Shown here: piece by piece, positions 12,944 through 53,351 of the stretch
How positions within the stretch are numbered: position 1 is the stretch's first letter
Layout of the letters: each line of letters begins with the position of its first letter
Source: Candidatus Omnitrophota bacterium
GTDB taxonomy: Bacteria; Omnitrophota; Gorgyraeia; Tantalellales; Tantalellaceae
Length of the DNA: 64,000 nt
NCBI GenBank assembly: GCA_049643885.1
Contig: JBARQV010000055.1
Location: forward strand, 9,052 to 73,051
Direction of reading: 5' to 3'
Translations under genes and position numbers: made by a program
Notes under the pieces: model-generated
Told to the model about the DNA's origin: nothing
The model's database searches: none
The model's input: the letters and a program-made list of their open reading frames with translations, nothing else

Positions 12944-13930
12944 TTAACAAATACGAGGAAGCTGGTCAGCTTCCAAAACTGGGAGTATCCTGCTCGACCC
13001 GATCTTTGTCTTTAGATAAACCTCTTCTTTATGTTTTGATGTGACCTCGCCTATGATACGCGCTCCGGGTCCCATCGCTCTTTTAACTTTCCCTGCGTCC
13101 TGTTCCATGACGAAACAAACGAACTTTCCTTCATTGGCGACATACAAGGGATCAAACCCCAGAACATCGCAAAGTTTTTTGACGCTTTTTCTTATGGGTA
13201 TATCTTTTTCGTAGATATCGATCCCGAGACCCGAAGCCGAGGCTATTTCGTTAAGAGCCGTAGCCAGGCCCCCTCTTGTAGGGTCACGCATCACGCTGAT
13301 ATTTTTCGACGCTTTTAAACATTTTTCTACCACAAAATTGAGATTAGAGCAATCACTCTTTATGCCGGACTCAAACCCAAGCCCTTCCCTTGCGTTCAGG
13401 ATGGCCATACCGTGTTCGGCTATGCTCCCGTTTATAATTATCGCGTCGCCAGGCCTTGCCTTTGCGCCGATCCGCCTGCCCTTATTATATATAATTCCTA
13501 TACCTGAGGTATTGATATACAGCTTATCGGCCGCGGCTTTCTCGACCACCTTTATATCCCCGGTGACTATCTTCACTCCTGCCTTCCGTGAAGCCCGCTT
13601 GATCGATCTTGCGACCTTTTCAAGGACCGAAAACTCAAGCCCTTCTTCGATTATGAACGCGAGGGAAATATAAAGAGGCTTGGCGCCTTTCATCGATATA
13701 TCGTTAACGGTCCCGTAAACGGCAAGTTCCCCTATATCGCCCCCGGGAAAAAATAAAGGTTTTACGACGAAAGAATCGGTGCTGAAAGCAAGTTTACTCT
13801 TGGCCACCCGAAGCTCCGCGGCATCGGTAAGTTCATCGAGTATCGGGTTGGAAAACTCCCGACGCAACACGTCTATGAGCTCGTGCATGAGTCTTCCGCC
13901 ATTACCATGAGACAAAGTGATAGTATTCAT
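12944..13930 (-). CDS. hypE: [NiFe]-hydrogenase maturation protein HypE (carbamoyl dehydratase)
   Basis: Starts MNTITLSHGNGG and ends with the conserved C-terminal PRIC motif. The ORF-track start at 14002 is an extension into the repeat. Confidence 0.9.
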   Translation of the reverse strand: MNTITLSHGNGGRLMHELIDVLRREFSNPILDELTDAAELRVAKSKLAFSTDSFVVKPLFFPGGDIGELAVYGTVNDISMKGAKPLYISLAFIIEEGLEFSVLEKVARSIKRASRKAGVKIVTGDIKVVEKAAADKLYINTSGIGIIYNKGRRIGAKARPGDAIIINGSIAEHGMAILNAREGLGFESGIKSDCSNLNFVVEKCLKASKNISVMRDPTRGGLATALNEIASASGLGIDIYEKDIPIRKSVKKLCDVLGFDPLYVANEGKFVCFVMEQDAGKVKRAMGPGARIIGEVTSKHKEEVYLKTKIGSSRILPVLEADQLPRIC

Positions 13931-13957
13931 TGCAAATTTAAAAGGTAAAATTAAAAG

Positions 13958-14063
13958 TATGTCATCCCGGAATCGTGCCGTAGGCACGATATCCGGGACC
14001 AATTAAAATTATTATGTGATCCCGGGTCTCCTTCGCCTTCGGCTCAGTCGCCCGGGATGACAT
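13958..14063. repeat. Two tandem palindromic repeat units (GTCATCCCGG-hairpin-CCGGGA family)
   Basis: Unit 1 is GTATGTCATCCCGGAATCGTGCCGTAGGCACGATATCCGGGA. Unit 2 is GTGATCCCGGGTCTCCTTCGCCTTCGGCTCAGTCGCCCGGGATGACAT, which is the reverse complement of the unit at 32198-32246 with one mismatch. Confidence 0.65.
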
Positions 14064-14070
14064 ATTTTCT

Positions 14071-15081
14071 TCATCCGCCATATCTATACGCCGCCGCGCA
14101 CGTCCCCTCTGATGAAACCATGCACGGCCCGACAGGGCTCCCGGGGGTGCACTTTTTCCCGAACAATCTGCAATCCCGGGGCGAGCTTATGCCCTGGAGA
14201 ACATCACCGCATAAACATCCTTTGGGCAGCGGCACATCGGGCACGTTTACGTTAAATTCTTTTTCCGCGTCAAATTGCCTGTATTCCTTTTTCAGCCTAA
14301 GGCCGCTTTTTTTTATTTTTCCCAGGCCCCGCCATTCCGAATCTCCCTGTTCAAAAACCGACTGCAGGATCTTGTTCGCTTTCCGGTTACCTTTCTTCTT
14401 CACGGCTCTTTTATATTCTATCTCTACCTTGCTGTCGCCTTTATTTACCTGATCGACCAGACGTTTTACTCCTTTTATGATATCGATCTCATCAAACCCG
14501 GTTATTACACAAGGCTTTCCGTAACGCGCCGCGATCCTCTCGTAAGGCGCACTCCCTGTAATGACGCTTACATGGCCGGGACAAATAAAACCGTCTATTT
14601 GTATCTTATCTGATCCCGCTATCGCCTCAAGGGCAGGGAAAATGACCTTAAAATTCGAAAGCAGGAAGAAATTCCTGATCTTCCGCTTCTTTGCCTCCAT
14701 GATCGTCGCCGCGGCAGTAGGAGAAGTGGTCTCGAACCCCACACCCATGAACACGACTCTTCTGGAAGGATTCTCTTCAGCGATCCTGAGGGCGTCAAGA
14801 CAAGAATAGACCACTAACACATCCGCCCCGCTCTCGGCCGCGTCCTGAAAACTTGACCTGCTTCCGGGAACGCGCACCATATCCCCGAAAGTGGTCATTA
14901 GCACGTCTTTGATGCCGGCTATTTCTACAGCCCTGTCGATATCCCGCTGGGACGTCACGCAAACGGGACACCCCGGGCCGGAAACAAGCTCGATCTCTTC
15001 AGGAAGGAGCTTTTTTATACCCGCCCTGGCGATAGCCATCGTATGCGTCCCGCATACTTCCATCAGTTTTATCTTTTTCAT
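14071..15081 (-). CDS. hypD: [NiFe]-hydrogenase maturation protein HypD
   Basis: CGTHT, GPGCPVC and CPVCV Fe-S/cysteine motifs of HypD. Confidence 0.9.
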   Translation of the reverse strand: MKKIKLMEVCGTHTMAIARAGIKKLLPEEIELVSGPGCPVCVTSQRDIDRAVEIAGIKDVLMTTFGDMVRVPGSRSSFQDAAESGADVLVVYSCLDALRIAEENPSRRVVFMGVGFETTSPTAAATIMEAKKRKIRNFFLLSNFKVIFPALEAIAGSDKIQIDGFICPGHVSVITGSAPYERIAARYGKPCVITGFDEIDIIKGVKRLVDQVNKGDSKVEIEYKRAVKKKGNRKANKILQSVFEQGDSEWRGLGKIKKSGLRLKKEYRQFDAEKEFNVNVPDVPLPKGCLCGDVLQGISSPRDCRLFGKKCTPGSPVGPCMVSSEGTCAAAYRYGG

Positions 15082-15083
15082 AG

Positions 15084-15362
15084 CTATTCTTCCTCCACAC
15101 TCTTATGCGTGTGGTATCCATTCCCTGCACGGAAGTATAGGGTGCTAACCGCGTCTTTGAGCTCTTTTAGGGCTTTGAGTGTATCCGCAGCTTCTTCTCT
15201 TTCGACCTTGCCTATAGCGAACCCGGCGTGAACAAGGACATAATCCCCTTCCCTGACGCCGCTCAAAACGCCGAGAGACACTTCCTTAAACACGCCTCCA
15301 AAATCCACTTTTGCCGTGTTTTTATTTACGCTTTTAACTTTTGCAGGAACTGCTAAGCACAT
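15084..15362 (-). CDS. hypC: [NiFe]-hydrogenase maturation protein HypC
   Basis: The N-terminal MCLAVPAKV (essential Cys2) and its roughly 90-aa size. Confidence 0.85.
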   Translation of the reverse strand: MCLAVPAKVKSVNKNTAKVDFGGVFKEVSLGVLSGVREGDYVLVHAGFAIGKVEREEAADTLKALKELKDAVSTLYFRAGNGYHTHKSVEEE

Positions 15363-16392
15363 GATATTGTCCTAACGCGATATTCAGGTCGTTGACGGGA
15401 ACAGACCTATTAATGAAAACATTAAATCCTTCCCGGGCCAGATCTTCTGTAACTTTTTTTCTTAAAAATTTATTCTGAAAAACTCCCCCGCTCAAGGCCA
15501 CGTCCGTGACCTTCGCCTTTTTCGACAGGGCCTTAACGGTTTTGACTGCGATCTCGGACATGGAATTATGGAATTTTGTCGCTACTTCTTCCTTCTTCTT
15601 TTTCCTTTTCACATCACCGGCCATACCCCGGAACAGGCCTTTAACATCTATAATATAACACTCTCCGTCTCTTATTGTTTCAAATCCATAGCTTTCTTCC
15701 AGATCGTCCCTGCACATCGATTCAAGCTTTATCGGCCCTTCCGCTTCATAAGACGCGTAAGTGCAGATCCCCAAAAGGGCCGCCGCGGCGTCAAAAAGGC
15801 GCCCCGCGCTTGACGTCAAAGGCGAATTTATATTCCTTGTCATCATCTCAAAAACAAGTTTTTTATCGCTCTCTGGAACATCTTTTATAAAGGAACTGCC
15901 CTCTTCCCCTAATATACTCAATACCATGCGCCAGGGCTGGCTTACGACCTTGTCGCCGCCGGGCATCTTCCTGTACTTCAGGTAAGCCGCCCTTTCGAAA
16001 CTATCGCCTCTGGCGATAAGGAACTCACCGCCCCAAATATTACCGTCTGCCCCATACCCTGTCCCGTCAAAAGAAACGCCGATAACCGGTCCCTTCAGGT
16101 CAAATTCGCGCATCACGCTCGCTATATGAGCGTGGTGGTGCTGAACGGGCACGACATCTTTGAAGGATCCTTTCGCAAATTTTGTCGAGAAATACCCGGG
16201 ATGAAGATCGCAGGCGACGATATCCGGTTTTGCCTTCTTTACAAGCTTGCGGACCTCTTTTTTGAAGAGTTCATAGTTCTGGACATCGCTTAAGTCTCCG
16301 ATATCCGGACCGGGATACAGAGAATCCCCTTTTGCCAGGAGAAACCTGTTCTTTATATCCGCTCCGGTTGCAAAAATCGTTCTATTTTTCAT
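15334..16392 (-). CDS. hypF: HypF-like carbamoyltransferase, Kae1/YgjD-like C-terminal domain only (no acylphosphatase, Zn-finger or YrdC domains)
   Basis: A 352-aa protein with the HHHAH metal motif, GGEFL and GGVFQN. It aligns to roughly residues 400-750 of full-length HypF. The ORF begins right at the domain boundary. Confidence 0.75.
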   Translation of the reverse strand: MKNRTIFATGADIKNRFLLAKGDSLYPGPDIGDLSDVQNYELFKKEVRKLVKKAKPDIVACDLHPGYFSTKFAKGSFKDVVPVQHHHAHIASVMREFDLKGPVIGVSFDGTGYGADGNIWGGEFLIARGDSFERAAYLKYRKMPGGDKVVSQPWRMVLSILGEEGSSFIKDVPESDKKLVFEMMTRNINSPLTSSAGRLFDAAAALLGICTYASYEAEGPIKLESMCRDDLEESYGFETIRDGECYIIDVKGLFRGMAGDVKRKKKKEEVATKFHNSMSEIAVKTVKALSKKAKVTDVALSGGVFQNKFLRKKVTEDLAREGFNVFINRSVPVNDLNIALGQYHVLSSSCKS

Positions 16393-16404
16393 ATTGCGTT
16401 AAAG

Positions 16405-16506
16405 GGACCGGTTGGGAGGGTGTTCCGTGCTCAAACAGTTCGAAAAAAAGCGACCTAAAATCGCTTTTTTTCGAAAACTCGCACTGAACACCCTCCCAAC
16501 CGGTCC
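16405..16506. repeat. 102-nt near-perfect palindrome (21-bp perfect outer arms and 13-bp inner arms)
   Basis: GGACCGGTTGGGAGGGTGTTC...CGAAAAAAAGCGA-cctaaaa-TCGCTTTTTTTCG...GAACACCCTCCCAACCGGTCC. It fills the whole hypA-like/hypF intergenic space. Confidence 0.7.
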
Positions 16507-16510
16507 TTTC

Positions 16511-16753
16511 TTACTCTATATCAAAAGATAACACTTGCACGATCGTTCCGGGAAAAAACGTGATATCAAGTTCCGCGTTCTCAAGGACCGTGCCCTTAGC
16601 CAGGACTTTAAACGTCTCTTTAAAAGATTCCTCTTTTACGCCTGTCAGCTCCCCGACTTTTAACTTCACCGTGGCAACACTCTTTGCCCCTTCTTTCTCG
16701 GCATGTTCCGCTATCCCTTTTATTATTGGCTCGATCAAATGGGTCTCATGCAT
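16511..16753 (-). CDS. hypA: HypA-like nickel-binding domain protein lacking the C-terminal zinc finger
   Basis: The N-terminal MHE nickel-binding motif (MHETHLIEPIIKG...), an 80-aa length and no cysteines. Canonical HypA is about 113 aa with CxxC-x12-CxxC. Confidence 0.55.
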   Translation of the reverse strand: MHETHLIEPIIKGIAEHAEKEGAKSVATVKLKVGELTGVKEESFKETFKVLAKGTVLENAELDITFFPGTIVQVLSFDIE

Positions 16754-17204
16754 TTTTCGTCTCCTTTATTTTATCCGTGATCTCCGATATCGCGTTTTTA
16801 ATGCTTTCCGACATCTCTTCACCGAAAGAAACATTTTCGGGCTGGACAGCCAACATGTAAATACCGGCCTTTGTTTCTTTCTCCAGAAATTCCAAAAATA
16901 AGTTCGGCGAAAGGTCATGCGTAGTAAGACCGGTTTTGGCTATCTCTTCCTTTTTCAGGAACGCATATTCGCCGGGTTTAAGGTCAAGATGTGCCGCATC
17001 GGCTATTACAACAGTATCGGGGTCTTCTTTGATTATTTTGCCGGTATAATTTTCAGGCGCACTGCCGGCGTCGATACATGTAAGATCTGTTTCAGCCTTC
17101 AGTTTCTCGATAAGGGCCGGGCCGAAAGCGTCATCGCCGCGCAAAACATTACCGATGCCTACAAAGACAACTTTCCCCTTTAATATCTTCTTAAATGTAT
17201 CCAT
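16746..17204 (-). CDS. Hydrogenase maturation endopeptidase (HycI/HyaD family)
   Basis: The VVFVGIGNVLRGDDAFG motif typical of the large-subunit C-terminal-processing proteases. Confidence 0.8.
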   Translation of the reverse strand: MDTFKKILKGKVVFVGIGNVLRGDDAFGPALIEKLKAETDLTCIDAGSAPENYTGKIIKEDPDTVVIADAAHLDLKPGEYAFLKKEEIAKTGLTTHDLSPNLFLEFLEKETKAGIYMLAVQPENVSFGEEMSESIKNAISEITDKIKETKNA

Positions 17205-17268: not shown

Positions 17269-17910
17269 TTACTCTTCGTGCTTTTTATTCTCTTCCGGCT
17301 TAGTGGTCAGGGTAGTCTCTCTCCTGCACCGCGCGCACACTATCTTAACCCTGTCGGACCTGCCGTAGTCCTTGAGCGCGGAAATAATATTCTCATCAAC
17401 AATACCAAGACTTTTCAGGCGGGATAGATAAAGGGTGGGATTGGAATAAGTCAATTCGCCTATTCTTTCGGATATCCATTTCAGGTGATCCTTGCATGTA
17501 ATAACATCGCCGCATACTTCACAAAGCTGCAGTTCCTTTTCGATTTTTTCGCTAGCTTCTTTTCGGTCAAAAAACGCGAGTTCCCAGTCAGTTGAAAGCT
17601 TGATGCCTTCATTGTCCGCGATGCATGCCGCTTCACACTGCCCGCAGAATATGCATGTATCGGTATGATGATACAATGTCCTTTTCGGATTTTCAGGATC
17701 CGCTGAATCCTCAAAAGAGAGCGCCTCCACCGGGCAGACCTGGACGCACGCCGTGCATCCCACGCATTTCTCGTCATCATATTTCGGCTGGCCCCTGAAG
17801 TTAGGATGAGGCTTGTGCATGACCTTGGGGAATTTGGACGTATATGGCCCTACGATAAGCGCTTTTATCGCTTCTAACAATTCTCTAATTTTTGGCTTCG
17901 GTATTCTCAT
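17269..17910 (-). CDS. 2x[4Fe-4S] ferredoxin subunit (NuoI/MbhN-like) with C-terminal Cys-rich extension
   Basis: The two cluster motifs CVGCTACVQVCP and CIFCGQCEAAC. The start is placed at MRIPKPKIRELL. The ORF-track start at 18033 overlaps mrpG. Confidence 0.7.
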   Translation of the reverse strand: MRIPKPKIRELLEAIKALIVGPYTSKFPKVMHKPHPNFRGQPKYDDEKCVGCTACVQVCPVEALSFEDSADPENPKRTLYHHTDTCIFCGQCEAACIADNEGIKLSTDWELAFFDRKEASEKIEKELQLCEVCGDVITCKDHLKWISERIGELTYSNPTLYLSRLKSLGIVDENIISALKDYGRSDRVKIVCARCRRETTLTTKPEENKKHEE

Positions 17911-17938
17911 TTTTGATTTTTGCTCTTTGATCTTTGAT

Positions 17939-18274
17939 CTATATTTCGCCCTCTTTGTCTTCTTTATACCTGTCGACGACGCTTCCTTCCCAGAGCTTGA
18001 CCCCTGCCCTGTGCGCACCCCTGGCCACGGCATGCGCCGCGACAGGAGCGGTCAGGAGAATGAACAATATACACAATAAAGATTTAAATCCCGCCGATGT
18101 AAAACCGACAATGAGAAACGTTCCGAAAAGTATGCTGCATGTCCCTAAAGTAACACTTTTCGTCGCCGCCTGAAGACGATTATAAACATCGGGGAGCCTC
18201 ACCAGACCGAGACACCCGAAAAAGTCAAACGCCAGTCCAACTACTATGAAAATAAGACCTATCTTCTCAATCAT
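17939..18274 (-). CDS. Mrp antiporter subunit G-like (MnhG/MbhC-like)
   Basis: The LGLVRLPDVYNRLQAATKSVTLG motif characteristic of MrpG/PhaG. Confidence 0.7.
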   Translation of the reverse strand: MIEKIGLIFIVVGLAFDFFGCLGLVRLPDVYNRLQAATKSVTLGTCSILFGTFLIVGFTSAGFKSLLCILFILLTAPVAAHAVARGAHRAGVKLWEGSVVDRYKEDKEGEI

Positions 18275-18635
18275 CGAAACTCTTTCCCTCCAGATATTTT
18301 GAAAGCGCCAGTGTGCTTATGAAACTCTGAAGCGCCCACGCTATCCCTATGTCAATATACCAGGACCTGCGGGTAGTAATGGTCAGCACCGCGCACAGGC
18401 CCACGATCAATATCCCGAGAATATCTATGGCCACGATCCTGTCAGCACCGGTAGGCCCTTTCCATATCCGGTAAAGACACATCAACGCGCCAAGTGTCAA
18501 TATATAAAGCGCCCTTCCGAAGAAACCGACCAGCGGCAGGTCCGGGTAAAACAGGAACGGAAAAGGCTTTATCAGTATCCTCGTGATGATCGCGCCTAAT
18601 ATGATCGCGCCTATGATCCACCTTATCATTTTCAT
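18267..18635 (-). CDS. Mrp antiporter subunit F-like (MnhF/MbhB-like)
   Basis: A small 3-TM protein with the GPTGADRIVAID segment typical of MrpF. Confidence 0.6.
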   Translation of the reverse strand: MKMIRWIIGAIILGAIITRILIKPFPFLFYPDLPLVGFFGRALYILTLGALMCLYRIWKGPTGADRIVAIDILGILIVGLCAVLTITTRRSWYIDIGIAWALQSFISTLALSKYLEGKSFDD

Positions 18636-18651
18636 GATTACATCCTTATTC

Positions 18652-18692
18652 GATCCCGGATTGAGCCCTTCGGGCTCATCCGGGATGACACA
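18652..18692. repeat. Palindromic repeat unit (inverted copy of the 17211-17250 unit)
   Basis: GATCCCGGATTGAGCCCTTCGGGCTCATCCGGGATGACACAT. Confidence 0.65.
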
Positions 18693-19193
18693 TTATTCAA
18701 AAATTTTGGACAGTATTTCCTCGAACCTTTTAATAATTATTTTTGTAGCGGCCTCGGTATCTTTATCTTTTACATCGATCCAGTGGACATACAAAAAACC
18801 GTTGTCCCTGTCCACGTCCACGCTCATCGTCCCCGGCGTAAGAGTTATAGAATTCGCCAGAAAGGTAAGTCCCGTATCAGTCTTCAGTTCCGTCTTCACT
18901 TTGACGATCCCCGGATTTATGGGAAGCTTCGGGTGCAATACGCGATAAGCCACGTCGATATTCGCCTTGAAGCACTCCCACAAAAACACCGGAACATACC
19001 AGAAAATAAAATAAAACCATCGATGGGGATGGCTTAGTTTCAGGGGCTCCTGTATAAAAAAGTCACCCGTTATAAAAGCCACAAAAGCCGCTATAAATAC
19101 ACCGACGACAAGATGCTGCCAGTCAGGCATCCAGTTCAAAAAGCACCATACCACGTAAGCCAATATGAATAATATTATCCTGCTTTTCATCAC
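18693..19193 (-). CDS. Mrp antiporter subunit E-like (MnhE/MbhA-like)
   Basis: A 166-aa membrane protein with the LTPGTMSVDV motif of MnhE. Confidence 0.6.
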   Translation of the reverse strand: MMKSRIILFILAYVVWCFLNWMPDWQHLVVGVFIAAFVAFITGDFFIQEPLKLSHPHRWFYFIFWYVPVFLWECFKANIDVAYRVLHPKLPINPGIVKVKTELKTDTGLTFLANSITLTPGTMSVDVDRDNGFLYVHWIDVKDKDTEAATKIIIKRFEEILSKIFE

Positions 19194-20698
19194 CCGATCC
19201 CCTTAAACACTATCACGGCGTATTTGGTGCCTTCTAAAAGGACGTCCGTAGCGCGCTCCAGAAAAAGCTGGTTCACGCCCGCGAGTAGAAGAACGCCTCC
19301 TACCAGGCAAATAAGCGCGAGCACGCCCATTGAAAGCCTCATAAAAATTGGGACTTCTTTTACCTGCCCGCATCTTTCCTTTAACTTGTCGTAGAAAGCG
19401 TATTTCATCACCTTCATGAAAGAGGCCAAAGTCAATACGCTGGCCAAAACCGCCCAGAAGGCGTACCCATATCTTCCCGCCTGGACAGCCGCGATAATAA
19501 TTATCAACTTGCTCCAGAAACCGTTAAAAGGCGGGATCCCGGCGATCGACATCGACGCTACCAGGCAGGTCGAACCTGTCACAGGCATTTTCTGGGACAA
19601 GCCGCCCATTTTCTGGAGATCACGCGTTCCCGTTGAGTATTCGAGCGCCCCGGAATTCAAAAAGAGGAGCGATTTAAAAATAGAGTGATTGAAAAGATGG
19701 AACAGCCCACCTAGTATCCCGAGCGGCGTTCCCAAGCCGATGCCCAGTATGACATATCCTATCTGGCTTATGGAGTGATACGCGAGAAGACGCTTAAAAT
19801 CCCACTGCCCGATAGCCAGGCACACTCCCACGACCATGGACAAAGCCCCAAGAAACAAAAAGATCTCCAAAACCTTGGGGGTCATACCGAACACGTTAAA
19901 GAAGATCCTGCACAAGGTATAAATACCGAGCGATTTTATTATGACTCCCGAAAGCATGGCCGATATAGGCGCCGGGGCTGAAGGGTGAGCGTCAGGCAGC
20001 CAGGCATGGAACGGGACAAGCGCCGCCTTCAGGCCGAACCCCATGATAAAAAGTACACTTACCATGAGGATAATATTCCCCCCTCCTTTTTGGGCCAGTA
20101 TAGAAGCCATGTCCGCCATGTTCAACGTCGAAGTATAACCGTAAAGAAGGACTATGCCTAAAAGGACAAAAAGAGAGCCGACGGTGCTCATAATGGCGTA
20201 CTTAAAGGCCGCTTCAAGCTCGTGTTTTTCAGTCCCGAAAGCGACCAGCGCGTAACTCGCCACGGACGCTATTTCCAGGAACACAAAAAGATTGAATATA
20301 TCCCCGGTTATAATGACACCGTTCATCCCTGCCAGCATGAGGAGGAACAGGCTATAGAACTTCCATTTGGAGGTATATTTTTTCATGTAATCTATGGAAA
20401 AGACCGAAATACAGAACGCTACCAGATTGACCGTTACCAGCATGAACGAGGTCAGGCCGTCAAGCACCATGGCTATACCGAAAGGAGGTTTCCATGCGCC
20501 GACTCCGTACACAAGAGTTCCGTATTTGTTATATATGAAAATAGCGGCGATCGAAAGCAAAAGCGAACCCAGTGTCGACAGGTTCCCCATAAAATCCGGA
20601 AACCATTTCAGCCGTTTTCCGCCCAGGGTTACAAGAAAAGCACCGGCAAGCGGGATAACCGTAAATAAAGGAATTATATTAGCTGCTTCTACTATCAT
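19190..20698 (-). CDS. Proton-translocating antiporter-like subunit (MrpD/NuoN family)
   Basis: A 502-aa polytopic protein with the NuoL/M/N-family core (WLPDAHPSAPAPISA...). Confidence 0.85.
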   Translation of the reverse strand: MIVEAANIIPLFTVIPLAGAFLVTLGGKRLKWFPDFMGNLSTLGSLLLSIAAIFIYNKYGTLVYGVGAWKPPFGIAMVLDGLTSFMLVTVNLVAFCISVFSIDYMKKYTSKWKFYSLFLLMLAGMNGVIITGDIFNLFVFLEIASVASYALVAFGTEKHELEAAFKYAIMSTVGSLFVLLGIVLLYGYTSTLNMADMASILAQKGGGNIILMVSVLFIMGFGLKAALVPFHAWLPDAHPSAPAPISAMLSGVIIKSLGIYTLCRIFFNVFGMTPKVLEIFLFLGALSMVVGVCLAIGQWDFKRLLAYHSISQIGYVILGIGLGTPLGILGGLFHLFNHSIFKSLLFLNSGALEYSTGTRDLQKMGGLSQKMPVTGSTCLVASMSIAGIPPFNGFWSKLIIIIAAVQAGRYGYAFWAVLASVLTLASFMKVMKYAFYDKLKERCGQVKEVPIFMRLSMGVLALICLVGGVLLLAGVNQLFLERATDVLLEGTKYAVIVFKGIG

Positions 20699-21036
20699 TA
20701 TCCTCGTAGCTCCCGAATTTTAGTAATGTCAAATGTTTGGTATTTCTGGTATATCCTCATGGCAATGGCGGCCAAAAGCGCGGTCGTCGCCAGTCCGATG
20801 ACGATGGCCGTGAGGACCAGCGCCTGGGGAAGCGCGTCGACCATATTCACGATCGTCTGGTCAGGAGCATAGATCGGGGCCCGCCCGCCCTCACGATACG
20901 CGGTCAGGATAAAGAACAGATTTACCGCGTATTCCATGATTATCACACCGATTATGATCTTGATCACGTTGCGCTTCCTCAAAACACAGTAAAGGCCTAT
21001 ACTAAAAAGCACGATACTTAAAAGATAAACAGTCAT
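20698..21036 (-). CDS. MrpC/NuoK-like membrane subunit
   Basis: A 112-aa, 3-TM protein positioned between the MrpD-like and MrpB-like genes. Confidence 0.7.
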   Translation of the reverse strand: MTVYLLSIVLFSIGLYCVLRKRNVIKIIIGVIIMEYAVNLFFILTAYREGGRAPIYAPDQTIVNMVDALPQALVLTAIVIGLATTALLAAIAMRIYQKYQTFDITKIRELRG

Positions 21037-21485
21037 TATTCGTTCTCCTCGAAGATCTTCATAAGTGTCAAAGCTACAAAAATCGCGAAAAGTCCCGCAC
21101 CTACCTTAAGGCTTATCGCCACGTTACAAAGCGGGATGATCCCGGCGCTGAAAAGCTTGAAAGGTTCGCCTTTGCCCACGAAATTCAAAAAGAAATACCC
21201 GCCGGTAAACCCCAAAAGAGCTATGCTAAGAAAGAGCAGCGCGCCCATTCCTTCAAAAAAAGAAGCGACCGGACGCGGAAGCTTGCTCAATGCCACGTCT
21301 TTTCCGTAGGCCAGCATCAAATGGACAAAAGACAGAGCTATTATGACACCTCCCGCAAAACCGCCGCCGGGCGAAACGTGTCCATGCGCCACGATATATA
21401 TCCCGTACAGGAGTATGATCCCCACCGTAAGACGGGTGATGGTCTTGACGATCAGGGACATTCCTTTTTCGTGTTCTCTGCTCAT
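21036..21485 (-). CDS. MrpB-like subunit (MnhB domain)
   Basis: The HGHVSPGGGFAGG signature of MnhB. Confidence 0.7.
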   Translation of the reverse strand: MSREHEKGMSLIVKTITRLTVGIILLYGIYIVAHGHVSPGGGFAGGVIIALSFVHLMLAYGKDVALSKLPRPVASFFEGMGALLFLSIALLGFTGGYFFLNFVGKGEPFKLFSAGIIPLCNVAISLKVGAGLFAIFVALTLMKIFEENE

Positions 21486-22027
21486 CGATCTTCCTCTATC
21501 TTTTCGTCCCCTTTTATCCTTCCTATGCGCCGAACCACGGCAAGCACACCGATAACTGCCGTGAAAAGGATCGTCGCCTCGCCCAGTGTATCAAAAGCCC
21601 TGTAGTCCAGGATGACCGAAGCGACAAGGTTGGCAGCTCCGGACTGCATGAGGCCGTCTTTCAGATAAGTGCTTCCCACTCTCATTATCGGATGACCGAA
21701 CTCCGGCAGATCCTTGAAACACACGTAAGAGATCACCAGAAACGTTACGATAAAGATCACGGCAATAACGGTGTTAAGAAACCACCTGCCGGACGTCGAA
21801 AACGGCAGATCCTTCTTCAAGGTCGCCTGGATCAATATTATGAGTATCAGGATCTCTACGACCAGCTGGGTAATGGCCACGTCCGGGGCCTTGAGCATCA
21901 GAAACGCGATCGACAGTCCCAGCCCGACCGCGCCTACCGCGATGACCGAGGAAAGGAGATCCTTTACCTCTATAGCCACTATCGCGCCTATTATCATAAA
22001 TACTAAAAGCACATGCAGTTCTACCAT
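21482..22027 (-). CDS. MnhB-domain membrane subunit (MrpA C-terminal-like; MbhD/E-like)
   Basis: The NLVASVILDYRAFDTLGE motif. The start is placed at MVELHVLL just after the mrpA-like stop. Confidence 0.6.
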   Translation of the reverse strand: MVELHVLLVFMIIGAIVAIEVKDLLSSVIAVGAVGLGLSIAFLMLKAPDVAITQLVVEILILIILIQATLKKDLPFSTSGRWFLNTVIAVIFIVTFLVISYVCFKDLPEFGHPIMRVGSTYLKDGLMQSGAANLVASVILDYRAFDTLGEATILFTAVIGVLAVVRRIGRIKGDEKIEEDR

Positions 22028-23679
22028 GGTTTCCTCATCAATACATAAAACAGGACGATCATACCGAGCATGCACCAGGCCAGGTATGTGAGAAGAACCC
22101 CGTTATGTATATACCGTAACAACCTGTTAAATCCTAAAGTGATTTTAATGCCGATATCGTATATATCAAAAAACTTTTTCTCCGCCCAATCATATATCCT
22201 TTTTAAACCTCCCACCTTCCTTATGGTCTCGTAAAATTCGACTCCCGAAACTCTCATGTCGGGATGTTCTTCCACAATTTCTCCGCCCACGAATATTTCA
22301 GTGGTCCTTGTCTTCACTGCCGTACCCAAAAGATATATTATAAGACCCACAATTATCGCAGAAATCATCAAAACCGTTGCCAGCCCGGAATCCCATATTC
22401 CCGTGAACGCCGCACCGCCCCCGATACTCGGAAATATGAACATCTTAAGAGGAACGGCATAAGCAAAAATACCGAAAACGATGCACAATACGGCAAGTAC
22501 GGCCGGGGGTATCCACATTGACGGCCCGGTCTCGCCTTTTTTTCGTTCGGCTTCTGTAATTTCCCGGGAAGGCTGCCCGAGAAAAACCGAATGCACCAGT
22601 TTCATAAAACTGGCCAGTGTAAGCGCGCTGCCGAACATGGCCGCTATAAGCCATAGCACCCAGAGCGGGTTGTCCTTGGCCGTATCGATCACGCCCTGGT
22701 ATATCATCCATTTCGAAGCGAAACCGTTCAAGGGCGGTACTCCCGATATAGCCAATGAAGCTATCAGAAAAGAAGCGAAACTTACAGGCATTATCTTCGC
22801 GAACCCCCCCAGCTTTTCCAGGTCCGTAGTCCCGGTCCTTTTTTCAACCGCTCCGCCTGACAAAAACAAGCAGGATTTATAGATGGCGTTATTGAGCATA
22901 TGAAAAAGAGCGCCTGCGATGCCTATCGGGTTGCCCGTGCCGATGCCCAAGACCATATAACCGACCTGGCTTACCGCGTGATACCCAAGTAGTCTCTTTA
23001 AATCATGCTGGACAAGTGCCATCATGACAGCGGCAACTATTGTCACGCTTCCCAGGGCCATCAAAAATGTGTTCATGGCGGCATCCATCTGGAACATGTC
23101 CAGGGTCAACCTGACAAGAAAATAGATCCCCAGCAGTTTGTCGAGAGACGCAGGCAGAAAAGCAGCCACTGGCGTCGGAGCGTCTTCCGCGGTATCGGGC
23201 ACCCAGGTATGAACCGGCATGACCCCGCCCTTCGCGAACGCGCCAAGGGCCAGACACAGGTAAGCCCAGACTGCCGCGCCAGAGTCCAGGGGTATATTGA
23301 TCTTATCCATTTCAAACGCGCCGGACAGCTTCCAGACTAACCCGAGTCCCAAAAGCATAACGGCGTCCGTCCCGCCGATTATTATGAATGTTTTCTTGGC
23401 GGTATACGTTGTGCTTTCTTTCCGGCCGAATCCTATCAAAAGATAAAGAAGCAGTCCCAAAAATCCCCAGAAACCTATGAAAAGTATAAGGTTGTTCGAG
23501 AAAACCGCGCCGAGGGAAGCCGCTATGGTAAGCAATATGTAAAAGAAATACCTGATGAGCCCTTTTCTCCCTCGCATGAATCCTATTGAGTAAATAAGCA
23601 CGAGCAAAGAAAAAAGACAGACAAAGATCCCTACAAAAATGGACAGATGATCGATCCTGAAAAGCTCAGCGTTTGGCAT
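22021..23679 (-). CDS. MrpA/NuoL-like antiporter subunit (MbhH-like)
   Basis: A 552-aa polytopic NuoL-family protein (WVPDTAEDAPTPVAAF). Confidence 0.85.
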   Translation of the reverse strand: MPNAELFRIDHLSIFVGIFVCLFSLLVLIYSIGFMRGRKGLIRYFFYILLTIAASLGAVFSNNLILFIGFWGFLGLLLYLLIGFGRKESTTYTAKKTFIIIGGTDAVMLLGLGLVWKLSGAFEMDKINIPLDSGAAVWAYLCLALGAFAKGGVMPVHTWVPDTAEDAPTPVAAFLPASLDKLLGIYFLVRLTLDMFQMDAAMNTFLMALGSVTIVAAVMMALVQHDLKRLLGYHAVSQVGYMVLGIGTGNPIGIAGALFHMLNNAIYKSCLFLSGGAVEKRTGTTDLEKLGGFAKIMPVSFASFLIASLAISGVPPLNGFASKWMIYQGVIDTAKDNPLWVLWLIAAMFGSALTLASFMKLVHSVFLGQPSREITEAERKKGETGPSMWIPPAVLAVLCIVFGIFAYAVPLKMFIFPSIGGGAAFTGIWDSGLATVLMISAIIVGLIIYLLGTAVKTRTTEIFVGGEIVEEHPDMRVSGVEFYETIRKVGGLKRIYDWAEKKFFDIYDIGIKITLGFNRLLRYIHNGVLLTYLAWCMLGMIVLFYVLMRKPW

Positions 23680-24856
23680 CCCAGTCTTTCCTTATTTTTT
23701 CCGTTTTCTCCTGTGACAGCCTTACCAGATCATGTCCGGTGTACAGCTTTTTCCCCTTTGTATTACGGACAGCCATCCTCTCCGTGCAGCAGTAACACGG
23801 GTCTATCGCCGCGAGGATTATCGTAGCGTCGGATATCGTCTCTCCCTTGACAGTCGCTTTATATGTAGGAAGATTCATGAACGTAGGCGCTCTAACCTTG
23901 TGGCGCACCGGACTGTTCGTCCCGTCACTCCTTACATAATGGAAAGTTTCTCCTCTCGGCGCTTCATGAGTGCCGATGCCCTCCCCGGGAGGTATGTTCT
24001 TGATCTTCGCGTCGATCTCACCTTCCGGTAGATTCAAAAGGCATTCTTTCATTATCTTGTATGACTCGAACATCTCCAGTATTCTTACTACCACTTTATC
24101 AAAAACATCACCATTATGAGTGACTATCATGTCCCATTCCACCTTATCATAAGCCGCGTAAGGTGAATCTTTTCTGACGTCCCGGGCAACTCCGGAAGCC
24201 CGTGAAGTCGGTCCCAGAGCGGAAAAGTTTATCGATTCTTCTTTCGTTAGAATGCCTATTCCCTTTGTCCGGGCGTGAAGCACAGGGTCATCCACTACCG
24301 CTTTTTTCAGCATGTTCAGTGTGGGAATTATGGAATCAATTTTCTTGATCACCACAGGTATGTCTTCCTTCTTTATATCTCTTCTTACCCCTCCCGGCTT
24401 GAACATGGCGTAGTTATTCCTGTTCCCGGAAAGTATTTCCATAACATCCAATATCTCTTCCCTCAATTTCCAGGCCCACATATAGACAGTGTTGTATCCC
24501 AAAAAATGTCCCGCGAGGCCAAGCCACAATAGGTGGGAATGTATCCTTTCTCCTTCACCTATTATGGTCCTTATGTATTTAGCCCTGTCGGGGACTTCCA
24601 TGGGTATGATGTCCTCCACCGCCTGGGCATAAGCAAATGGATGGCTTGTGGAGCATATGCCGCATATTCTTTCGATCACGAATGTCGACTGGTCGAAAGT
24701 CTTCATCTCGGATAATTTCTCAATACCCCTGTGGTTGTACCCGACCTGGACATCGATATCGACGACCCTCTCACCCTCAACAGTAAGAGTGAAAAACTCA
24801 GGTTCTTCCTGAAGCGGGTGGTACGGTCCTATGGGAACTATTGTCTTCGCCATCAA
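23666..24856 (-). CDS. Group-4 [NiFe]-hydrogenase large (catalytic) subunit, NuoD-like
   Basis: The N-terminal L1 motif RICGICSTSH and the C-terminal L2 motif DPCYCCTER, that is, both Ni-Fe-ligating Cys pairs, in a 396-aa protein. Confidence 0.85.
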   Translation of the reverse strand: MMAKTIVPIGPYHPLQEEPEFFTLTVEGERVVDIDVQVGYNHRGIEKLSEMKTFDQSTFVIERICGICSTSHPFAYAQAVEDIIPMEVPDRAKYIRTIIGEGERIHSHLLWLGLAGHFLGYNTVYMWAWKLREEILDVMEILSGNRNNYAMFKPGGVRRDIKKEDIPVVIKKIDSIIPTLNMLKKAVVDDPVLHARTKGIGILTKEESINFSALGPTSRASGVARDVRKDSPYAAYDKVEWDMIVTHNGDVFDKVVVRILEMFESYKIMKECLLNLPEGEIDAKIKNIPPGEGIGTHEAPRGETFHYVRSDGTNSPVRHKVRAPTFMNLPTYKATVKGETISDATIILAAIDPCYCCTERMAVRNTKGKKLYTGHDLVRLSQEKTEKIRKDWDAKR

Positions 24857-25326
24857 ACACCTCTATCCCTTATTGCGCCCTCATCCCACTCCTTATAATC
24901 GCACCTCAAAGGATAGACACCTTCCGGCCATTCGTCAGGAAGAAGGAGTCTTCTCATATCAGGATGACCCTTGAAACTGATCCCCAGCATTTCGTTCATC
25001 TCTCTTTCTATCCAGTTTGCCGCCTCAAAAACAGGAGCAAGTGAATCGATCTCCAATCTATCTTTGGGCAGCTTTACTCTCAAAGATATCTGAAGATTTA
25101 TTTCTTCGATGATAAAATGATAAAGGATCTCCATGTGGAACCTGACATCCACGCCGGTCGCGATATTGAACCTCGCTCCCATATCTTTAAAAAGATAACT
25201 GCCGATCTTGACTATCGATTCAGGTTTTATCTCGATATAGACTCTCTTTTGGGACTTATCGAAAATATCGATAATATCGTCTTTGAATTTGCTTTTAAGA
25301 TTCTTTAAAACTTCATTCCTTGTCAT
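24853..25326 (-). CDS. NuoC-like (30 kDa) hydrogenase subunit
   Basis: ANWIEREMNEMLGISFKGHPDMRRLLL, the NuoC/EchD signature. Confidence 0.8.
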   Translation of the reverse strand: MTRNEVLKNLKSKFKDDIIDIFDKSQKRVYIEIKPESIVKIGSYLFKDMGARFNIATGVDVRFHMEILYHFIIEEINLQISLRVKLPKDRLEIDSLAPVFEAANWIEREMNEMLGISFKGHPDMRRLLLPDEWPEGVYPLRCDYKEWDEGAIRDRGV

Positions 25327-25361
25327 AATTCACTTCTCTGCTTGAGTATCCATCATCGATT

Positions 25362-25444
25362 GGGCGGGTCCTGTCGCTCAGTGCCCTGCGCGCCTCCGCG
25401 CCACTGGCTTGTGCGGTGCTCGGACACTGTCGCGCCACCCGCCC
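25362..25444 (+). repeat. GC-rich 83-nt structured repeat, copy A (GGGCGGGT...ACCCGCCC)
   Basis: It is 97-98% identical to the copies at 44575-44656 (+) and 30116-30198 (-). It has 8-bp terminal inverted repeats and an internal CAGTGTCC/GGACACTG stem. GC is about 70%, against roughly 45-50% for the flanks. Confidence 0.7.
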
Positions 25445-25485
25445 GCCGCTGACCGCAGACCGCTATGCCCTCTGCGCTCTGCTCT

Positions 25486-25911
25486 TTACTTCTTCCCTCT
25501 AACCTTCTCAATGAGCTTCACTACCCCCGCGATGATAGCTTCCGGCTTCGGGGGGCAGCCGGGAATATAAACGTCTACCGGGATGATCTTATCCAGCGGC
25601 ACGGGACAATTATAACTGTGGATGAACATGCCGCGGGACATGGAACATTCCCCTACAGCCACCACAAGCAAAGGTTTTGGCGCTTGTTCATATAATCTTT
25701 TCAATCTCTCCACGGACTTCCTATTACAAGAACCCGTGATCAGGAGCACATCTGCGTGTTTAATACTTCCGACAAGAAGCATCCCGAACCTCTCAATGTC
25801 GAACCTGGGGGTAAGACAATCGAGTATCTCGATATCGCAGTTATTACAACTACCGGTAGACAGGTGAAACACCCATGGAGACTTCAAAAGTGCTTTTAAT
25901 TTCATACTCAT
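25486..25911 (-). CDS. NuoB-like [NiFe]-hydrogenase small subunit (proximal 4Fe-4S)
   Basis: GSCNNCDIEI and VDVYIPGCPPKPE motifs. Confidence 0.85.
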   Translation of the reverse strand: MSMKLKALLKSPWVFHLSTGSCNNCDIEILDCLTPRFDIERFGMLLVGSIKHADVLLITGSCNRKSVERLKRLYEQAPKPLLVVAVGECSMSRGMFIHSYNCPVPLDKIIPVDVYIPGCPPKPEAIIAGVVKLIEKVRGKK

Positions 25912-25913
25912 GA

Positions 25914-29910: not shown

Positions 29911-29917
29911 ATTTGGA

Positions 29918-29935
29918 TTGTGATAATCTTCACAG
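29918..29935. promoter_or_regulatory. Candidate Rex operator (TTGTGA-N6-TCACAG)
   Basis: A near-consensus Rex box (TTGTGAAnnnnTTCACAA) 8-25 nt upstream of the rex ATG, at the head of the hydrogenase operon. Confidence 0.5.
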
Positions 29936-30115
29936 ACTTCGTTCCGATTTTCACGAATATAATACTTTCGCAATAAAAAGTCAAGAGTTTTTTGGGGTGC
30001 TGGATGCTTGTCGTTAGTCGGTCGTCGGTCGTATTTCAAAGGACAGAGTGCGGAGCGGAGATATCAGATAGCATAGCGCAAAGAGCATCGCGGTTTGTGG
30101 TGTGCGGTCTTCGAT

Positions 30116-53275: not shown

Positions 53276-53351
53276 GGCTCCCCGGGTTGGACTCGAACCA
53301 ACAACCTACTGGTTAACAGCCAGTCGCTACTACCATTGAGCTACCGGGGAG
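53276..53351 (-). tRNA. tRNA-Asn (anticodon GUU)
   Basis: Manual cloverleaf: acceptor TCCCCGG/CCGGGGA, discriminator G, CCA. The anticodon stem is ACTGG/CCAGT with loop CUGUUAA. The T-arm is GTTGG-TTCGAGT-CCAAC. Confidence 0.85.

What the first reader, a model, noticed from the sequence alone, without database searches (positions are those of the whole stretch)
12944..17204. Minimalist hyp maturation set: HypF reduced to its Kae1-like domain, HypA without zinc finger, no hypB
hypC, hypD and hypE look canonical, with MCLAVP, the CGTHT/GPGCPVC motifs and a C-terminal PRIC. The hypF ORF is only 352 aa and starts exactly at the Kae1/YgjD-like carbamoyl-transfer domain (HHHAH). The acylphosphatase, twin zinc-finger and YrdC-like carbamoyladenylate-forming domains are missing. 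Upstream, an 80-aa HypA-like protein keeps the MHE nickel-binding N-terminus but has no cysteines at all, so the CxxC...CxxC zinc domain is absent. No HypB GTPase lies in the cluster. A 102-nt palindrome occupies the entire hypA-like/hypF junction. This is either a natural split or reduced maturation system, with the YrdC part and hypB encoded elsewhere, or a deletion scar.
Basis: partly seen in the sequence, partly recalled or inferred. Interest (0 to 1): 0.6.

Follow-up and report, generated by a model that had tools for sequence, protein, structure and literature searches.

The report
Minimal hydrogenase maturation set in Omnitrophota
This uncultured Omnitrophota bacterium, like its whole lineage, carries stripped-down helper genes for building its nickel-iron hydrogenase (a half-size HypF, a zinc-free 80-residue HypA, no HypB nearby), and this is a conserved natural design rather than a deletion or an assembly error.

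Summary
On the minus strand the order is hycI, an 80-aa Cys-free HypA, a 108-nt hairpin, a 352-aa HypF made only of the Kae1-like domain, then canonical hypC, hypD and hypE. They sit at the end of an Mbh/Mrp-type group-4 [NiFe] hydrogenase operon. No hypB and no HypF N-half occur in the 64 kb.

It is not a scar or misassembly. Three independent assemblies agree. More than 120 protein clusters (56-70% identity, about 350 aa) and more than 115 HypA clusters (exactly 80 aa in nearly all) share the architecture, including two single-contig MAG chromosomes of 1.14 and 1.43 Mb. In relatives hypA and hypF overlap (ATGTTGAATAA), so the palindrome is a later, lineage-specific insertion.

The HypA has lost exactly its zinc ribbon and gained an invariant His5. 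The HypF keeps every conserved Kae1-domain residue.

A Kae1-only HypF has one known precedent, Cupriavidus necator HypF1, whose function is unclear.

Most likely an unlinked enzyme supplies carbamoyl-adenylate in trans, and nickel goes in without an operon-encoded HypB. Whether hypB or a YrdC-type partner lies elsewhere in these genomes could not be tested here.

The parts
16746..17204 (-). hycI-type hydrogenase maturation endopeptidase (152 aa)
   Evidence: Pfam HycI at 2e-16 and TIGR00072 at 110 bits, above its cut-off. The large subunit carries a 36-aa C-terminal tail after DPCYCCTER for it to cleave.
16511..16753 (-). Zinc-free mini-HypA (80 aa): the nickel-binding domain only, with MHE, an invariant His5 and no Cys
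   Evidence: Pfam HypA positions 1-70 of 112. In an alignment with 44 canonical HypA, the roughly 33-residue CxxC...CPxC ribbon is excised and the last beta-strand is kept. The AF2 model has pLDDT 93.6 and matches PDB 3a43_B with TM-score 0.90 and rmsd 1.8 A. More than 115 clusters are 73-93% identical, nearly all exactly 80 aa.
16402..16509 (.). 108-nt nested palindrome filling the hypA/hypF junction; a lineage-specific insertion, possibly flanked by a TAA direct repeat
   Evidence: Found. It is present in assemblies L001-L003 only. Relatives have overlapping or closely abutting genes without it. No Rfam family matches and there is no copy in viral contigs.
15334..16392 (-). Kae1-like-domain-only HypF (352 aa), the carbamoyl-transfer module
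   Evidence: Domain matches are. The AF2 model has pLDDT 85.9 and matches PDB 3vth_A with TM-score 0.92. 43 Kae1-domain positions are conserved identically with full-length HypF. More than 120 clusters are 338-407 aa long.
15084..15362 (-). hypC (92 aa, MCLAVP); overlaps the 3' end of hypF by 29 nt
   Evidence: Pfam HupF_HypC at 2.5e-26. The same 29-nt overlap is seen in relatives.
14071..15081 (-). hypD (336 aa; CGTHT, GPGCPVC); starts at profile position 18 (Pfam) or 32 (TIGR00075)
   Evidence: Pfam HypD at 6.5e-148 and TIGR00075 at 466 bits, above its cut-off.
12944..13930 (-). hypE (328 aa from the ATG at 13930; the ORF runs up to 14002); C-terminal PRIC
   Evidence: TIGR02124 at 428 bits, above its cut-off. 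An independent assembly calls the 328-aa gene.
17269..26837 (-). Structural genes of the Mbh/Mrp-type group-4 [NiFe] hydrogenase served by the hyp genes. Large subunit 24853..23666, small subunit 25911..25486, plus Mrp-like antiporter subunits and a ferredoxin.
   Evidence: Pfam calls are. The large subunit carries RICGICSTSH and DPCYCC, so both metal-binding cysteine pairs are intact.

Best explanation
This is a functional, lineage-wide minimal [NiFe]-hydrogenase maturation module. It is co-transcribed with the only hydrogenase it serves, an Mbh/Mrp-type group-4 enzyme.

Shown:
- The architecture hycI, Zn-free HypA (80 aa), Kae1-only HypF (about 350 aa), hypC, hypD, hypE is conserved across Omnitrophota, including two single-contig MAG chromosomes of 1.1-1.4 Mb.
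- The two short proteins are complete, well-folded single domains that keep all family-conserved residues.
- The palindrome is a later insertion into an ancestrally overlapping hypA/hypF junction.

Inferred:
- The short HypF performs only the last HypF step. It takes carbamoyl-adenylate and carbamoylates the C-terminal Cys of HypE (PRIC). HypE then dehydrates this to thiocyanate and passes CN to Fe on HypC-HypD.
- The adenylate is made in trans by an unlinked YrdC/Sua5-fold enzyme, either the t6A enzyme TsaC/Sua5 or a paralogue. I put this at about 50%. The t6A pathway works the same way, with TsaC and TsaD as separate proteins.
- Nickel is delivered by the HypA nickel domain alone, using Met1-His2-Glu3 and possibly the clade-specific invariant His5, without an operon-encoded HypB. 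HycI then cleaves the 36-residue tail of the large subunit.
- The hairpin most likely acts only on the mRNA, through decoupling, attenuation or stabilisation, or is a MITE-like passenger.
For: Conservation:
- One search found more than 120 clusters of 338-407 aa at 56-70% identity. Those that carry an organism name are Omnitrophota.
- One search shows a conserved N-terminus (M..KTILALGADIKNRF), so the start is real.
- One search found more than 115 HypA clusters, exactly 80 aa in nearly all.
- Searches show the same operon in the window, L004, L005, L167 and L168.
- One search shows the hypA/hypF overlap ATGTTGAATAA in relatives and three identical independent assemblies of the window lineage.

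Intact chemistry:
- 43 Kae1-domain positions, including H85, H86, H89, D109 and D335, are at least 90% conserved and identical in 48 short and 189 full-length HypF. Only one position is clade-specific. So the same active site is kept, and therefore the same substrate.
- the fold matches the Kae1 domain of 3VTH and 3VTI (TM-score 0.92).
- HypA keeps MHE and the full nickel-domain fold. His5 is invariant in the mini family (42 of 42) and absent from canonical HypA (0 of 44).
- the large subunit keeps both CxxC pairs and a cleavable tail, so CN ligands and nickel are needed.

Precedent:
- C. necator HypF1 is Kae1-only at 394 aa.

Co-variation:
- A sister Omnitrophota lineage (L065) has a short HypF with a canonical 114-aa HypA followed by hypB.
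- All nine core-clade loci examined pair the mini-HypA with no adjacent hypB.
Against: - Whole-genome absence of hypB, of a full-length hypF or of a stand-alone N-half was not testable here. All 'missing' parts may simply be unlinked.
- C. necator HypF1 was inactive in E. coli delta-hypF, which does have TsaC (PMC5350229). It seemed to interfere with maturation under anaerobic conditions (PMC9100943). This argues against a housekeeping YrdC enzyme being a sufficient adenylate source. However, HypF1 synthesis was not demonstrated in that study, and HypE/HypF pairs are species-specific.
- Zinc-site residues of H. pylori HypA matter for hydrogenase activity (PMC5557546), so a zinc-free HypA is not obviously competent.
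- No expression or activity data exist for any of these uncultured organisms.
Confidence: 0.65

Rival explanations
1. Split system. A dedicated HypF N-terminal protein (acylphosphatase, Zn fingers, YrdC), or a second full-length HypF, together with hypB, is encoded elsewhere in the genome and works with the operon-encoded short proteins. C. necator does this with HypF2 alongside HypF1.
For: C. necator carries a full-length HypF2 and HypA2/B2 besides HypF1. At least one Omnitrophica-labelled partial HypF carries all the N-terminal domains (P0431). L065 has hypA-hypB 10 kb from its short hypF.
Against: No N-half or hypB was found in the 64-kb window or in 199 kb of flanks from 12 short-HypF loci, apart from the hypB start in L065. 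The N-half-only proteins found on long contigs are followed at once by a HypF_C ORF, in long-read assemblies that carry other broken genes, so they are frameshift artefacts. A full-length HypF in the same small genome would make a strongly conserved short copy redundant.
Confidence: 0.25
2. The Kae1-like domain is self-sufficient. It uses carbamoyl phosphate, with or without ATP bound in its ASKHA nucleotide site, to carbamoylate HypE directly, so no adenylating partner is needed.
For: No partner is found in any operon. Carbamoyl phosphate is itself an activated donor (established biochemistry, my own knowledge). The short form is widespread, with about 48 clusters in one block and at least one further origin.
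Against: There is no retooling of the active site: 43 of 43 conserved positions are the same as in full-length enzymes, with one clade-specific change. HypF1 was inactive in E. coli delta-hypF. In full-length HypF the adenylation is assigned to the YrdC domain (Petkun 2011 and Shomura 2012, from memory).
Confidence: 0.1
3. Deletion scar, pseudogenisation or misassembly centred on the palindrome. This would have removed the 3' end of hypA, all of hypB and the 5' half of hypF.
For: The breakpoints fall in mid-hypA and mid-hypF, and the canonical order hypA-hypB-hypF would fit one deletion. A long palindrome sits exactly at the junction.
Against: Three independent assemblies are identical. Relatives at 56-70% identity have the same two short genes without the palindrome, and the genes overlap. 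HypA keeps its C-terminal strand after a precise internal excision, which a single hypA-to-hypF deletion cannot produce. Both proteins fold as complete domains.
Confidence: 0.02

Closest known systems
Cupriavidus necator (Ralstonia eutropha) H16 HypF1, megaplasmid pHG1 (NC_005241.1 10034..11218, 394 aa)
   Same: It is a Kae1-like-domain-only HypF: its match to my full-length HypF model starts at position 401 of 765. It lies immediately upstream of hypC-hypD-hypE. It is 35.6% identical to the window protein over residues 6-345. The literature describes it as 'unusually truncated', as comprising 'only one of three domains', and as 'likely requiring carbamoyl adenylate'.
   Different: HypF1 follows a canonical hypA1 and hypB1 and coexists with a full-length HypF2. 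The host is an aerobe with group 1, 2 and 3 hydrogenases. In clustering, HypF1 falls outside the Omnitrophota short block, among full-length HypFs, which points to an independent truncation. The Omnitrophota form is tied to a group-4 operon, a zinc-free HypA and no adjacent hypB.
Canonical four-domain HypF (E. coli; Caldanaerobacter subterraneus, PDB 3VTH and 3VTI; T. kodakarensis, PDB 4G9I)
   Same: The C-terminal Kae1-like domain matches in sequence (E = 4e-71 to 3VTH residues 401-744) and in fold (TM-score 0.92). All 43 conserved positions are the same.
   Different: The acylphosphatase domain, the two zf-HYPF motifs and the YrdC-like adenylation domain are all missing.
t6A biosynthesis, with TsaC/Sua5 (YrdC fold) and TsaD/Kae1 as separate proteins
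   Same: It works as two separate enzymes: a YrdC-fold protein makes an acyl-adenylate (threonylcarbamoyl-AMP) and a Kae1-fold protein receives it and transfers the carbamoyl group (my own knowledge). TsaD structures are the next-best fold matches after HypF.
   Different: This is an analogy only. No experiment links TsaC to HypF, and the window protein is a HypF-type domain, not a TsaD-type one (TsaD Pfam score only 36.7 bits).
Canonical HypA/HybF (T. kodakarensis, PDB 3A43; H. pylori, PDB 2KDX and 6G81)
   Same: It shares the N-terminal MHE nickel motif and the complete alpha/beta nickel-domain fold, including the returning C-terminal strand.
   Different: The whole zinc ribbon (CxxC...CPxC, about 33 residues) is absent. 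His5 is invariant here and absent from 44 canonical sequences. The score is below the TIGR00100 equivalog cut-off.

Membership tests
Carbamoyltransferase HypF (TIGR00143 equivalog) | N-terminal acylphosphatase domain (PF00708) | tested here: not met
   No match in Pfam or NCBIfam. The protein starts at TIGR00143 position 390.
Carbamoyltransferase HypF (TIGR00143 equivalog) | Two zf-HYPF zinc-finger motifs (PF07503) | tested here: not met
   No match.
Carbamoyltransferase HypF (TIGR00143 equivalog) | YrdC/Sua5-like carbamoyl-adenylate-forming domain (PF01300) | tested here: not met
   No match in the protein, in the window, or within 10 kb in 12 related loci.
Carbamoyltransferase HypF (TIGR00143 equivalog) | Kae1-like carbamoyl-transfer domain with the HxxxH...D...D metal and nucleotide site | tested here: met
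   PF17788 and PF22521 match over their whole length. H85, H86, H89, D109 and D335 are conserved as in full-length HypF. The fold matches with TM-score 0.92.
Carbamoyltransferase HypF (TIGR00143 equivalog) | Whole-protein score above the curated cut-off (466 bits) | tested here: not met
   265.4 bits.
Truncated HypF1 type (C. necator) | Kae1-only architecture, encoded directly upstream of hypCDE | tested here: met
Truncated HypF1 type (C. necator) | Common descent with HypF1 (same truncation event) | tested here: not met
   UPGMA clustering of 320 Kae1 domains puts HypF1 among full-length HypFs, outside the 48-member Omnitrophota short block. This is a phenetic method, so the result is provisional.
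Truncated HypF1 type (C. necator) | Coexistence with a full-length HypF in the same genome | not testable with these tools
   Whole genomes could not be read. Only 10-kb flanks and the 64-kb window were searched.
HypA nickel metallochaperone (PF01155 / TIGR00100) | N-terminal Met-His-Glu nickel-binding motif on the alpha/beta nickel domain | tested here: met
   M1, H2 and E3 are invariant. The fold matches 3a43_B with TM-score 0.90.
HypA nickel metallochaperone (PF01155 / TIGR00100) | Structural zinc site, CxxC...CxxC | tested here: not met
   There is no cysteine in the protein. The alignment shows the ribbon excised.
HypA nickel metallochaperone (PF01155 / TIGR00100) | Score above curated cut-offs | tested here: inconclusive
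   It passes the Pfam gathering score (61.7 against 28.9 bits) but fails the TIGR00100 equivalog cut-off (61.7 against 88.1 bits).
HypB nickel GTPase (PF02492, ENVGNLVCP motif) | Presence of the gene in the cluster | tested here: not met
   Absent from the window and from the core-clade loci. The HMM detected even a 42-residue HypB fragment in L065, so sensitivity is adequate.
HypB nickel GTPase (PF02492, ENVGNLVCP motif) | Presence of the gene anywhere in the genome | not testable with these tools
HypC / HypD / HypE | N-terminal Cys of HypC; CGxHx and GPGCPVC of HypD; C-terminal PRIC of HypE; scores above NCBIfam cut-offs | tested here: met
   HypC 81.8 against 48 bits, HypD 466 against 193, HypE 428 against 252.

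The most novel reading that the evidence does not exclude
Omnitrophota with 1.1-1.4 Mb genomes may assemble a working NiFe(CN)2CO site with only hycI, a zinc-free HypA, a Kae1-only HypF and HypCDE. There would be no HypB and no HypF adenylation, acylphosphatase or zinc-finger module anywhere in the genome. This would be the smallest natural [NiFe] maturation machinery known. It would imply either that the universal t6A enzyme TsaC/Sua5 moonlights as the carbamoyl-AMP supplier for cyanide ligand synthesis, or that the Kae1 domain alone suffices. It would also imply that the HypA zinc domain exists to serve HypB.
Probability: 0.35. Interest if true: 0.8.

Novelty: new variant of a known kind. 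Interest (0 to 1): 0.6.

Why it matters
HypF's three N-terminal modules and HypA's zinc domain are treated as integral to [NiFe] hydrogenase maturation. The one known Kae1-only HypF, C. necator HypF1, has remained a puzzle: it was inactive in E. coli and always has a full-length paralogue beside it.

Here a whole phylum keeps only the Kae1 module, in the single hyp operon attached to its single hydrogenase operon. It pairs it with a HypA reduced to its nickel domain. This gives a natural experiment with many sequence variants.

Three questions become directly testable:
- What supplies carbamoyl-adenylate?
- What are the HypA zinc domain and HypB needed for?
- How small can a transplantable maturation cassette be for heterologous hydrogenase production?

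The two short forms are already annotated in databases as ordinary HypF and HypA or as hypothetical proteins, and I found no paper that remarks on them.

Tried and rejected
They returned mostly full-length HypFs from other phyla. These were useful as controls and for building HypB and HypF HMMs, but gave only about 8 loci with a short HypF.
- I searched for a stand-alone HypF N-half with the N-terminal 374 residues of the full-length HypF closest to the short clade (P0250). The top 120 hits were mostly contig-end fragments. The N-only proteins on long contigs (P0436, P0467) were frameshift-split genes.
- Whole-genome presence or absence of hypB, hypF-N and tsaC in the single-contig chromosomes CP070655.1 and CP070780.1 cannot be checked, because no tool reads whole genomes.
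- I looked for a conserved unknown gene that could replace the missing domains. A 341-aa protein with no Pfam hit lies upstream of short hypF in L044, L095 and L169, but it is absent from the window and the core clade, so it is rejected as a general partner.
- The palindrome has no other copy in the window, in 171 loci or in viral contigs. It matches no Rfam family and is not called as a simple terminator. Its function is unresolved.
- Literature searches for HypF or hydrogenase maturation in Omnitrophota, for truncated or short HypF, and for organisms lacking hypB found only the C. necator HypF1 papers and a Frankia study.
- A Biopython neighbour-joining tree timed out. It was replaced by UPGMA on p-distances, so the claims about clades are phenetic only.


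Full report
OBSERVATION. On the minus strand the window carries hycI (17204..16746), an 80-aa HypA-like gene (16753..16511), a 118-nt spacer, a 352-aa hypF (16392..15334), hypC (15362..15084), hypD (15081..14071) and hypE (ORF 14002..12944). An independent assembly calls hypE from the ATG at 13930, giving 328 aa.

The HypF ORF matches HypF_C and HypF_C_2 over their whole length. It matches only positions 390-738 of 741 of TIGR00143, at 265 bits against a 466-bit cut-off. It has no acylphosphatase, zf-HYPF or Sua5/YrdC match. It aligns to residues 401-744 of the 761-residue HypF of PDB 3VTH.

The HypA-like protein has no cysteine and begins MHE. It matches Pfam HypA positions 1-70 of 112. HypC (MCLAVP), HypD (CGTHT, GPGCPVC) and HypE (PRIC) all score above their NCBIfam cut-offs.

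The spacer holds a nested palindrome at 16402-16509. The outer arms are 29 nt and 93% complementary; the inner arms are 15 nt and 100%. The RNA fold is -75.3 kcal/mol with z = -11.6, and the element is unique in the window.

No HypB and no HypF N-half occur anywhere in the 64 kb. This rests on Pfam scans of 46 large ORFs, precomputed Pfam calls, and HMMs I built from 32 HypB and 23 full-length HypF sequences and ran over every ORF of 50 aa or more.

NOT A SCAR AND NOT AN ARTEFACT. Three independent assemblies (one from ENA, two NCBI MAGs) match the window at 99.94-99.98% identity without a gap across the junction, and they carry the palindrome.

A search of 5.8 billion proteins returned more than 120 clusters at 56-70% identity. 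All are 338-407 aa with only HypF_C domains, and those that carry an organism name are Omnitrophota. Their N-termini are conserved (M..KTILALGADIKNRF), so the short start is genuine.

The HypA query returned more than 115 clusters at 73-93% identity, exactly 80 aa in nearly all. This protein is more conserved than the HypF.

Two single-contig MAG chromosomes (CP070655.1 at 1.14 Mb, CP070780.1 at 1.43 Mb) and two long metagenomic contigs show the same order. It runs Mbh/Mrp-type hydrogenase genes, ferredoxin, HycI, HypA (80-81 aa), HypF_C (345-359 aa), HypC, HypD, HypE.

In these relatives the hypA stop overlaps the hypF start (ATGTTGAATAA in L004, L167 and L006), or the genes are 17-81 nt apart with no palindrome. 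The palindrome is therefore a secondary, lineage-specific insertion into an ancestrally translationally coupled junction. It did not cause the truncations.

ANATOMY OF THE TWO REDUCED PROTEINS: HypF. The AlphaFold model (pLDDT 85.9) superposes on the Kae1-like domain of 3VTH and of the HypE-HypF complex 3VTI, with TM-score 0.92 and rmsd 2.4 A. TsaD and Kae1 structures are the next matches.

I aligned 48 short and 189 full-length Kae1 domains. 43 positions are at least 90% conserved and identical in both groups, including H85, H86, H89, D109 and D335. Only one position is specific to the short clade, N39 against T. The active site has not been retooled.

ANATOMY OF THE TWO REDUCED PROTEINS: HypA. 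Aligned with 44 canonical HypA from the fetched loci, the mini-HypA lacks exactly the CxxC...CPxC ribbon of about 33 residues. It keeps the terminal strand: G-T/S-R-I/V-E-V-x-S-F-D-V/I-E aligns with G-x-E-L-x-V-E-S-I-E-V-E.

The model (pLDDT 93.6) superposes on T. kodakarensis HypA 3a43_B with TM-score 0.90 and rmsd 1.8 A, across an alignment that skips the zinc domain. M1, H2, E3, H5 and H17 are invariant. His5 occurs in 0 of 44 canonical HypA.

THE CLIENT ENZYME. The large subunit (24853..23666) keeps RICGICSTSH and DPCYCCTER, followed by a 36-residue tail. So it needs nickel, Fe(CN)2CO and HycI processing.

WIDER DISTRIBUTION AND PRECEDENT. Full-length HypFs (about 760 aa) appear only at 44% identity or lower to the window protein.

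A profile search of 1.84 billion cluster representatives gave 12,108 hits. Among the best 150, about 45 are 354-400 aa and begin within 30 residues of the Kae1 domain. Several sit on contigs of 60-220 kb, so they are not fragments.

UPGMA clustering puts 48 short HypFs into one block with no full-length member. The block contains the Omnitrophota core plus a more divergent set that includes L044, L065, L095 and P0252. P0252 sits in shortHypF-HypC-D-E directly upstream of the same kind of group-4 hydrogenase.

One divergent Omnitrophota locus, L065, combines a short HypF with a canonical 114-aa HypA followed by the start of hypB. So the HypF truncation is independent of the HypA and HypB reduction, while the zinc-free HypA and the missing hypB go together.

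The known precedent is C. necator H16 HypF1. It is 394 aa, and its match to my full-length HypF model starts at position 401. It is 35.6% identical to the window protein and lies in hypA1-B1-F1-C-D-E. It clusters apart from the Omnitrophota block, which suggests at least two independent truncations.

The literature calls HypF1 'unusually truncated' and reports it inactive in E. coli delta-hypF (PMC5350229). [quoted passage not shown]

WHERE IS THE MISSING CHEMISTRY? I found no YrdC-like or HypB-like ORF in the window or in 199 kb around 12 short-HypF loci, apart from the hypB start in L065. I then queried with a HypF N-half. The N-only proteins on long contigs turned out to be followed at once by a HypF_C ORF overlapping by 14 nt. 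They lie in long-read assemblies, and one of them shows other broken genes, so they are frameshift artefacts.

One Omnitrophica-labelled partial HypF carries all the N-terminal domains (P0431), so canonical HypF does exist in the phylum. Whether the genomes with the short form also hold an unlinked partner or hypB could not be tested with these tools.

MECHANISM (inferred). The active site is unchanged, so the short HypF most likely does what the Kae1 domain does in the full enzyme. It would bind carbamoyl-adenylate and transfer the carbamoyl group to the C-terminal Cys of HypE. HypE then dehydrates it to thiocyanate for HypCD.

The adenylate must then come in trans. The most economical source is an unlinked YrdC/Sua5-fold enzyme, as in t6A synthesis, where TsaC and TsaD are separate proteins. 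I put this at about 50%, a dedicated split N-half or second HypF at about 25%, and a self-sufficient Kae1 domain at about 10%. The E. coli result for HypF1 counts against a housekeeping supplier, but HypF1 synthesis was not shown there.

Nickel would be handed over by the HypA nickel domain alone, perhaps helped by His5. In H. pylori, zinc-site residues matter for hydrogenase activity, so this is a real departure.

The hairpin probably acts on the mRNA, through uncoupling, attenuation or stabilisation, or is a MITE-like passenger with a possible TAA duplication. Nothing tested here decides between these.

VERDICT. The 'deletion scar' reading is refuted and the 'natural reduced system' reading is supported. 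This is a new variant of a known kind: Kae1-only HypF was known from one organism, while the zinc-free HypA and the phylum-wide operon appear undescribed in the library I could search. Interest is moderate to high for hydrogenase maturation specialists.

Noticed in passing
window 17269-30039 (-): The hydrogenase operon is an Mbh/Mrp-type group-4 enzyme. It is preceded by a Fer4_11 protein (27421..26834), an FAD/NAD-binding DHODB-FeS protein (28260..27433), a Fer4_22 protein (29284..28244) and a Rex-like regulator (30039..29281). This looks like an NAD(P)H-linked, ion-translocating hydrogenase under redox control. The same module accompanies the short HypF in L169.
   Followed up: partly
window 4386-5762 (-), 3856-4389 (-): The CTP synthase (pyrG) ORF lacks its first 65-140 residues, including the P-loop region, and stop codons lie upstream. 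It matches CTP_synth_N only from profile position 144. The gene callers of the independent assemblies give 395 or 458 aa. An AbiJ_NTD4-domain ORF abuts its 3' end.
   Followed up: partly
L044 192-1226; L095 1245-2270; L169 7412-8437: In the divergent short-HypF clade, a conserved 341-aa protein with no Pfam hit lies upstream of short hypF. Its motifs are FWPQLPK, IHCCGNTDW and TPSCGxGTL, the copies are 47-55% identical, and it looks like a Zn-dependent TIM-barrel MetE/UROD type. A conserved ApbE-like protein of about 245 aa lies downstream of hypE (after hypA in L095). Neither is present in the window.
   Followed up: partly
L065 20602-21089: An Omnitrophota MAG with a short HypF (41% identical) has a canonical 114-aa HypA with CxxC...CPxC. 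It is followed by the first 42 residues of a HypB at the end of the locus. So the zinc-free HypA and the absence of an adjacent hypB co-vary, independently of the HypF truncation.
   Followed up: partly
L014 8744-11065; L170 8001-9897; L171 6964-9250: HypF genes are split into N-half and Kae1-half ORFs. In a Rikenellaceae MAG a single in-frame stop falls exactly at the domain boundary. In two long-read contigs the halves overlap by 14 nt, and L170 also has other broken genes. These are probably sequencing or frameshift artefacts and could be mistaken for natural splits.
   Followed up: partly
window 16511-16753 (-), residue 5: His5 (MHETH...) is invariant in 42 of 42 mini-HypA sequences and absent from 44 canonical HypA, where Ser is usual. 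It lies one helical turn from His2 and could be an extra nickel ligand.
   Followed up: partly
window 16393-16401 and 16510-16516: The palindrome is flanked by TAA on both sides (GAGTAA|GAAAGGACC...GGTCCCTT|TAACGC). One TAA is the hypA stop codon. This may be a 3-bp target-site duplication of a MITE-like element, or it may be chance.
   Followed up: no
window 14071-15362 (-): HypD starts at Pfam profile position 18 (TIGR00075 position 32), so it lacks the usual N-terminal 17-30 residues. This is also true in relatives (332-345 aa). The window's HypC (92 aa) has about 19 extra C-terminal residues compared with relatives (73-77 aa).
   Followed up: no
window 53232-53350: A 22-nt, 95% complementary hairpin (53232-53278) directly abuts a tRNA gene (53350..53278, minus strand). 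It is probably the tRNA's terminator.
   Followed up: no
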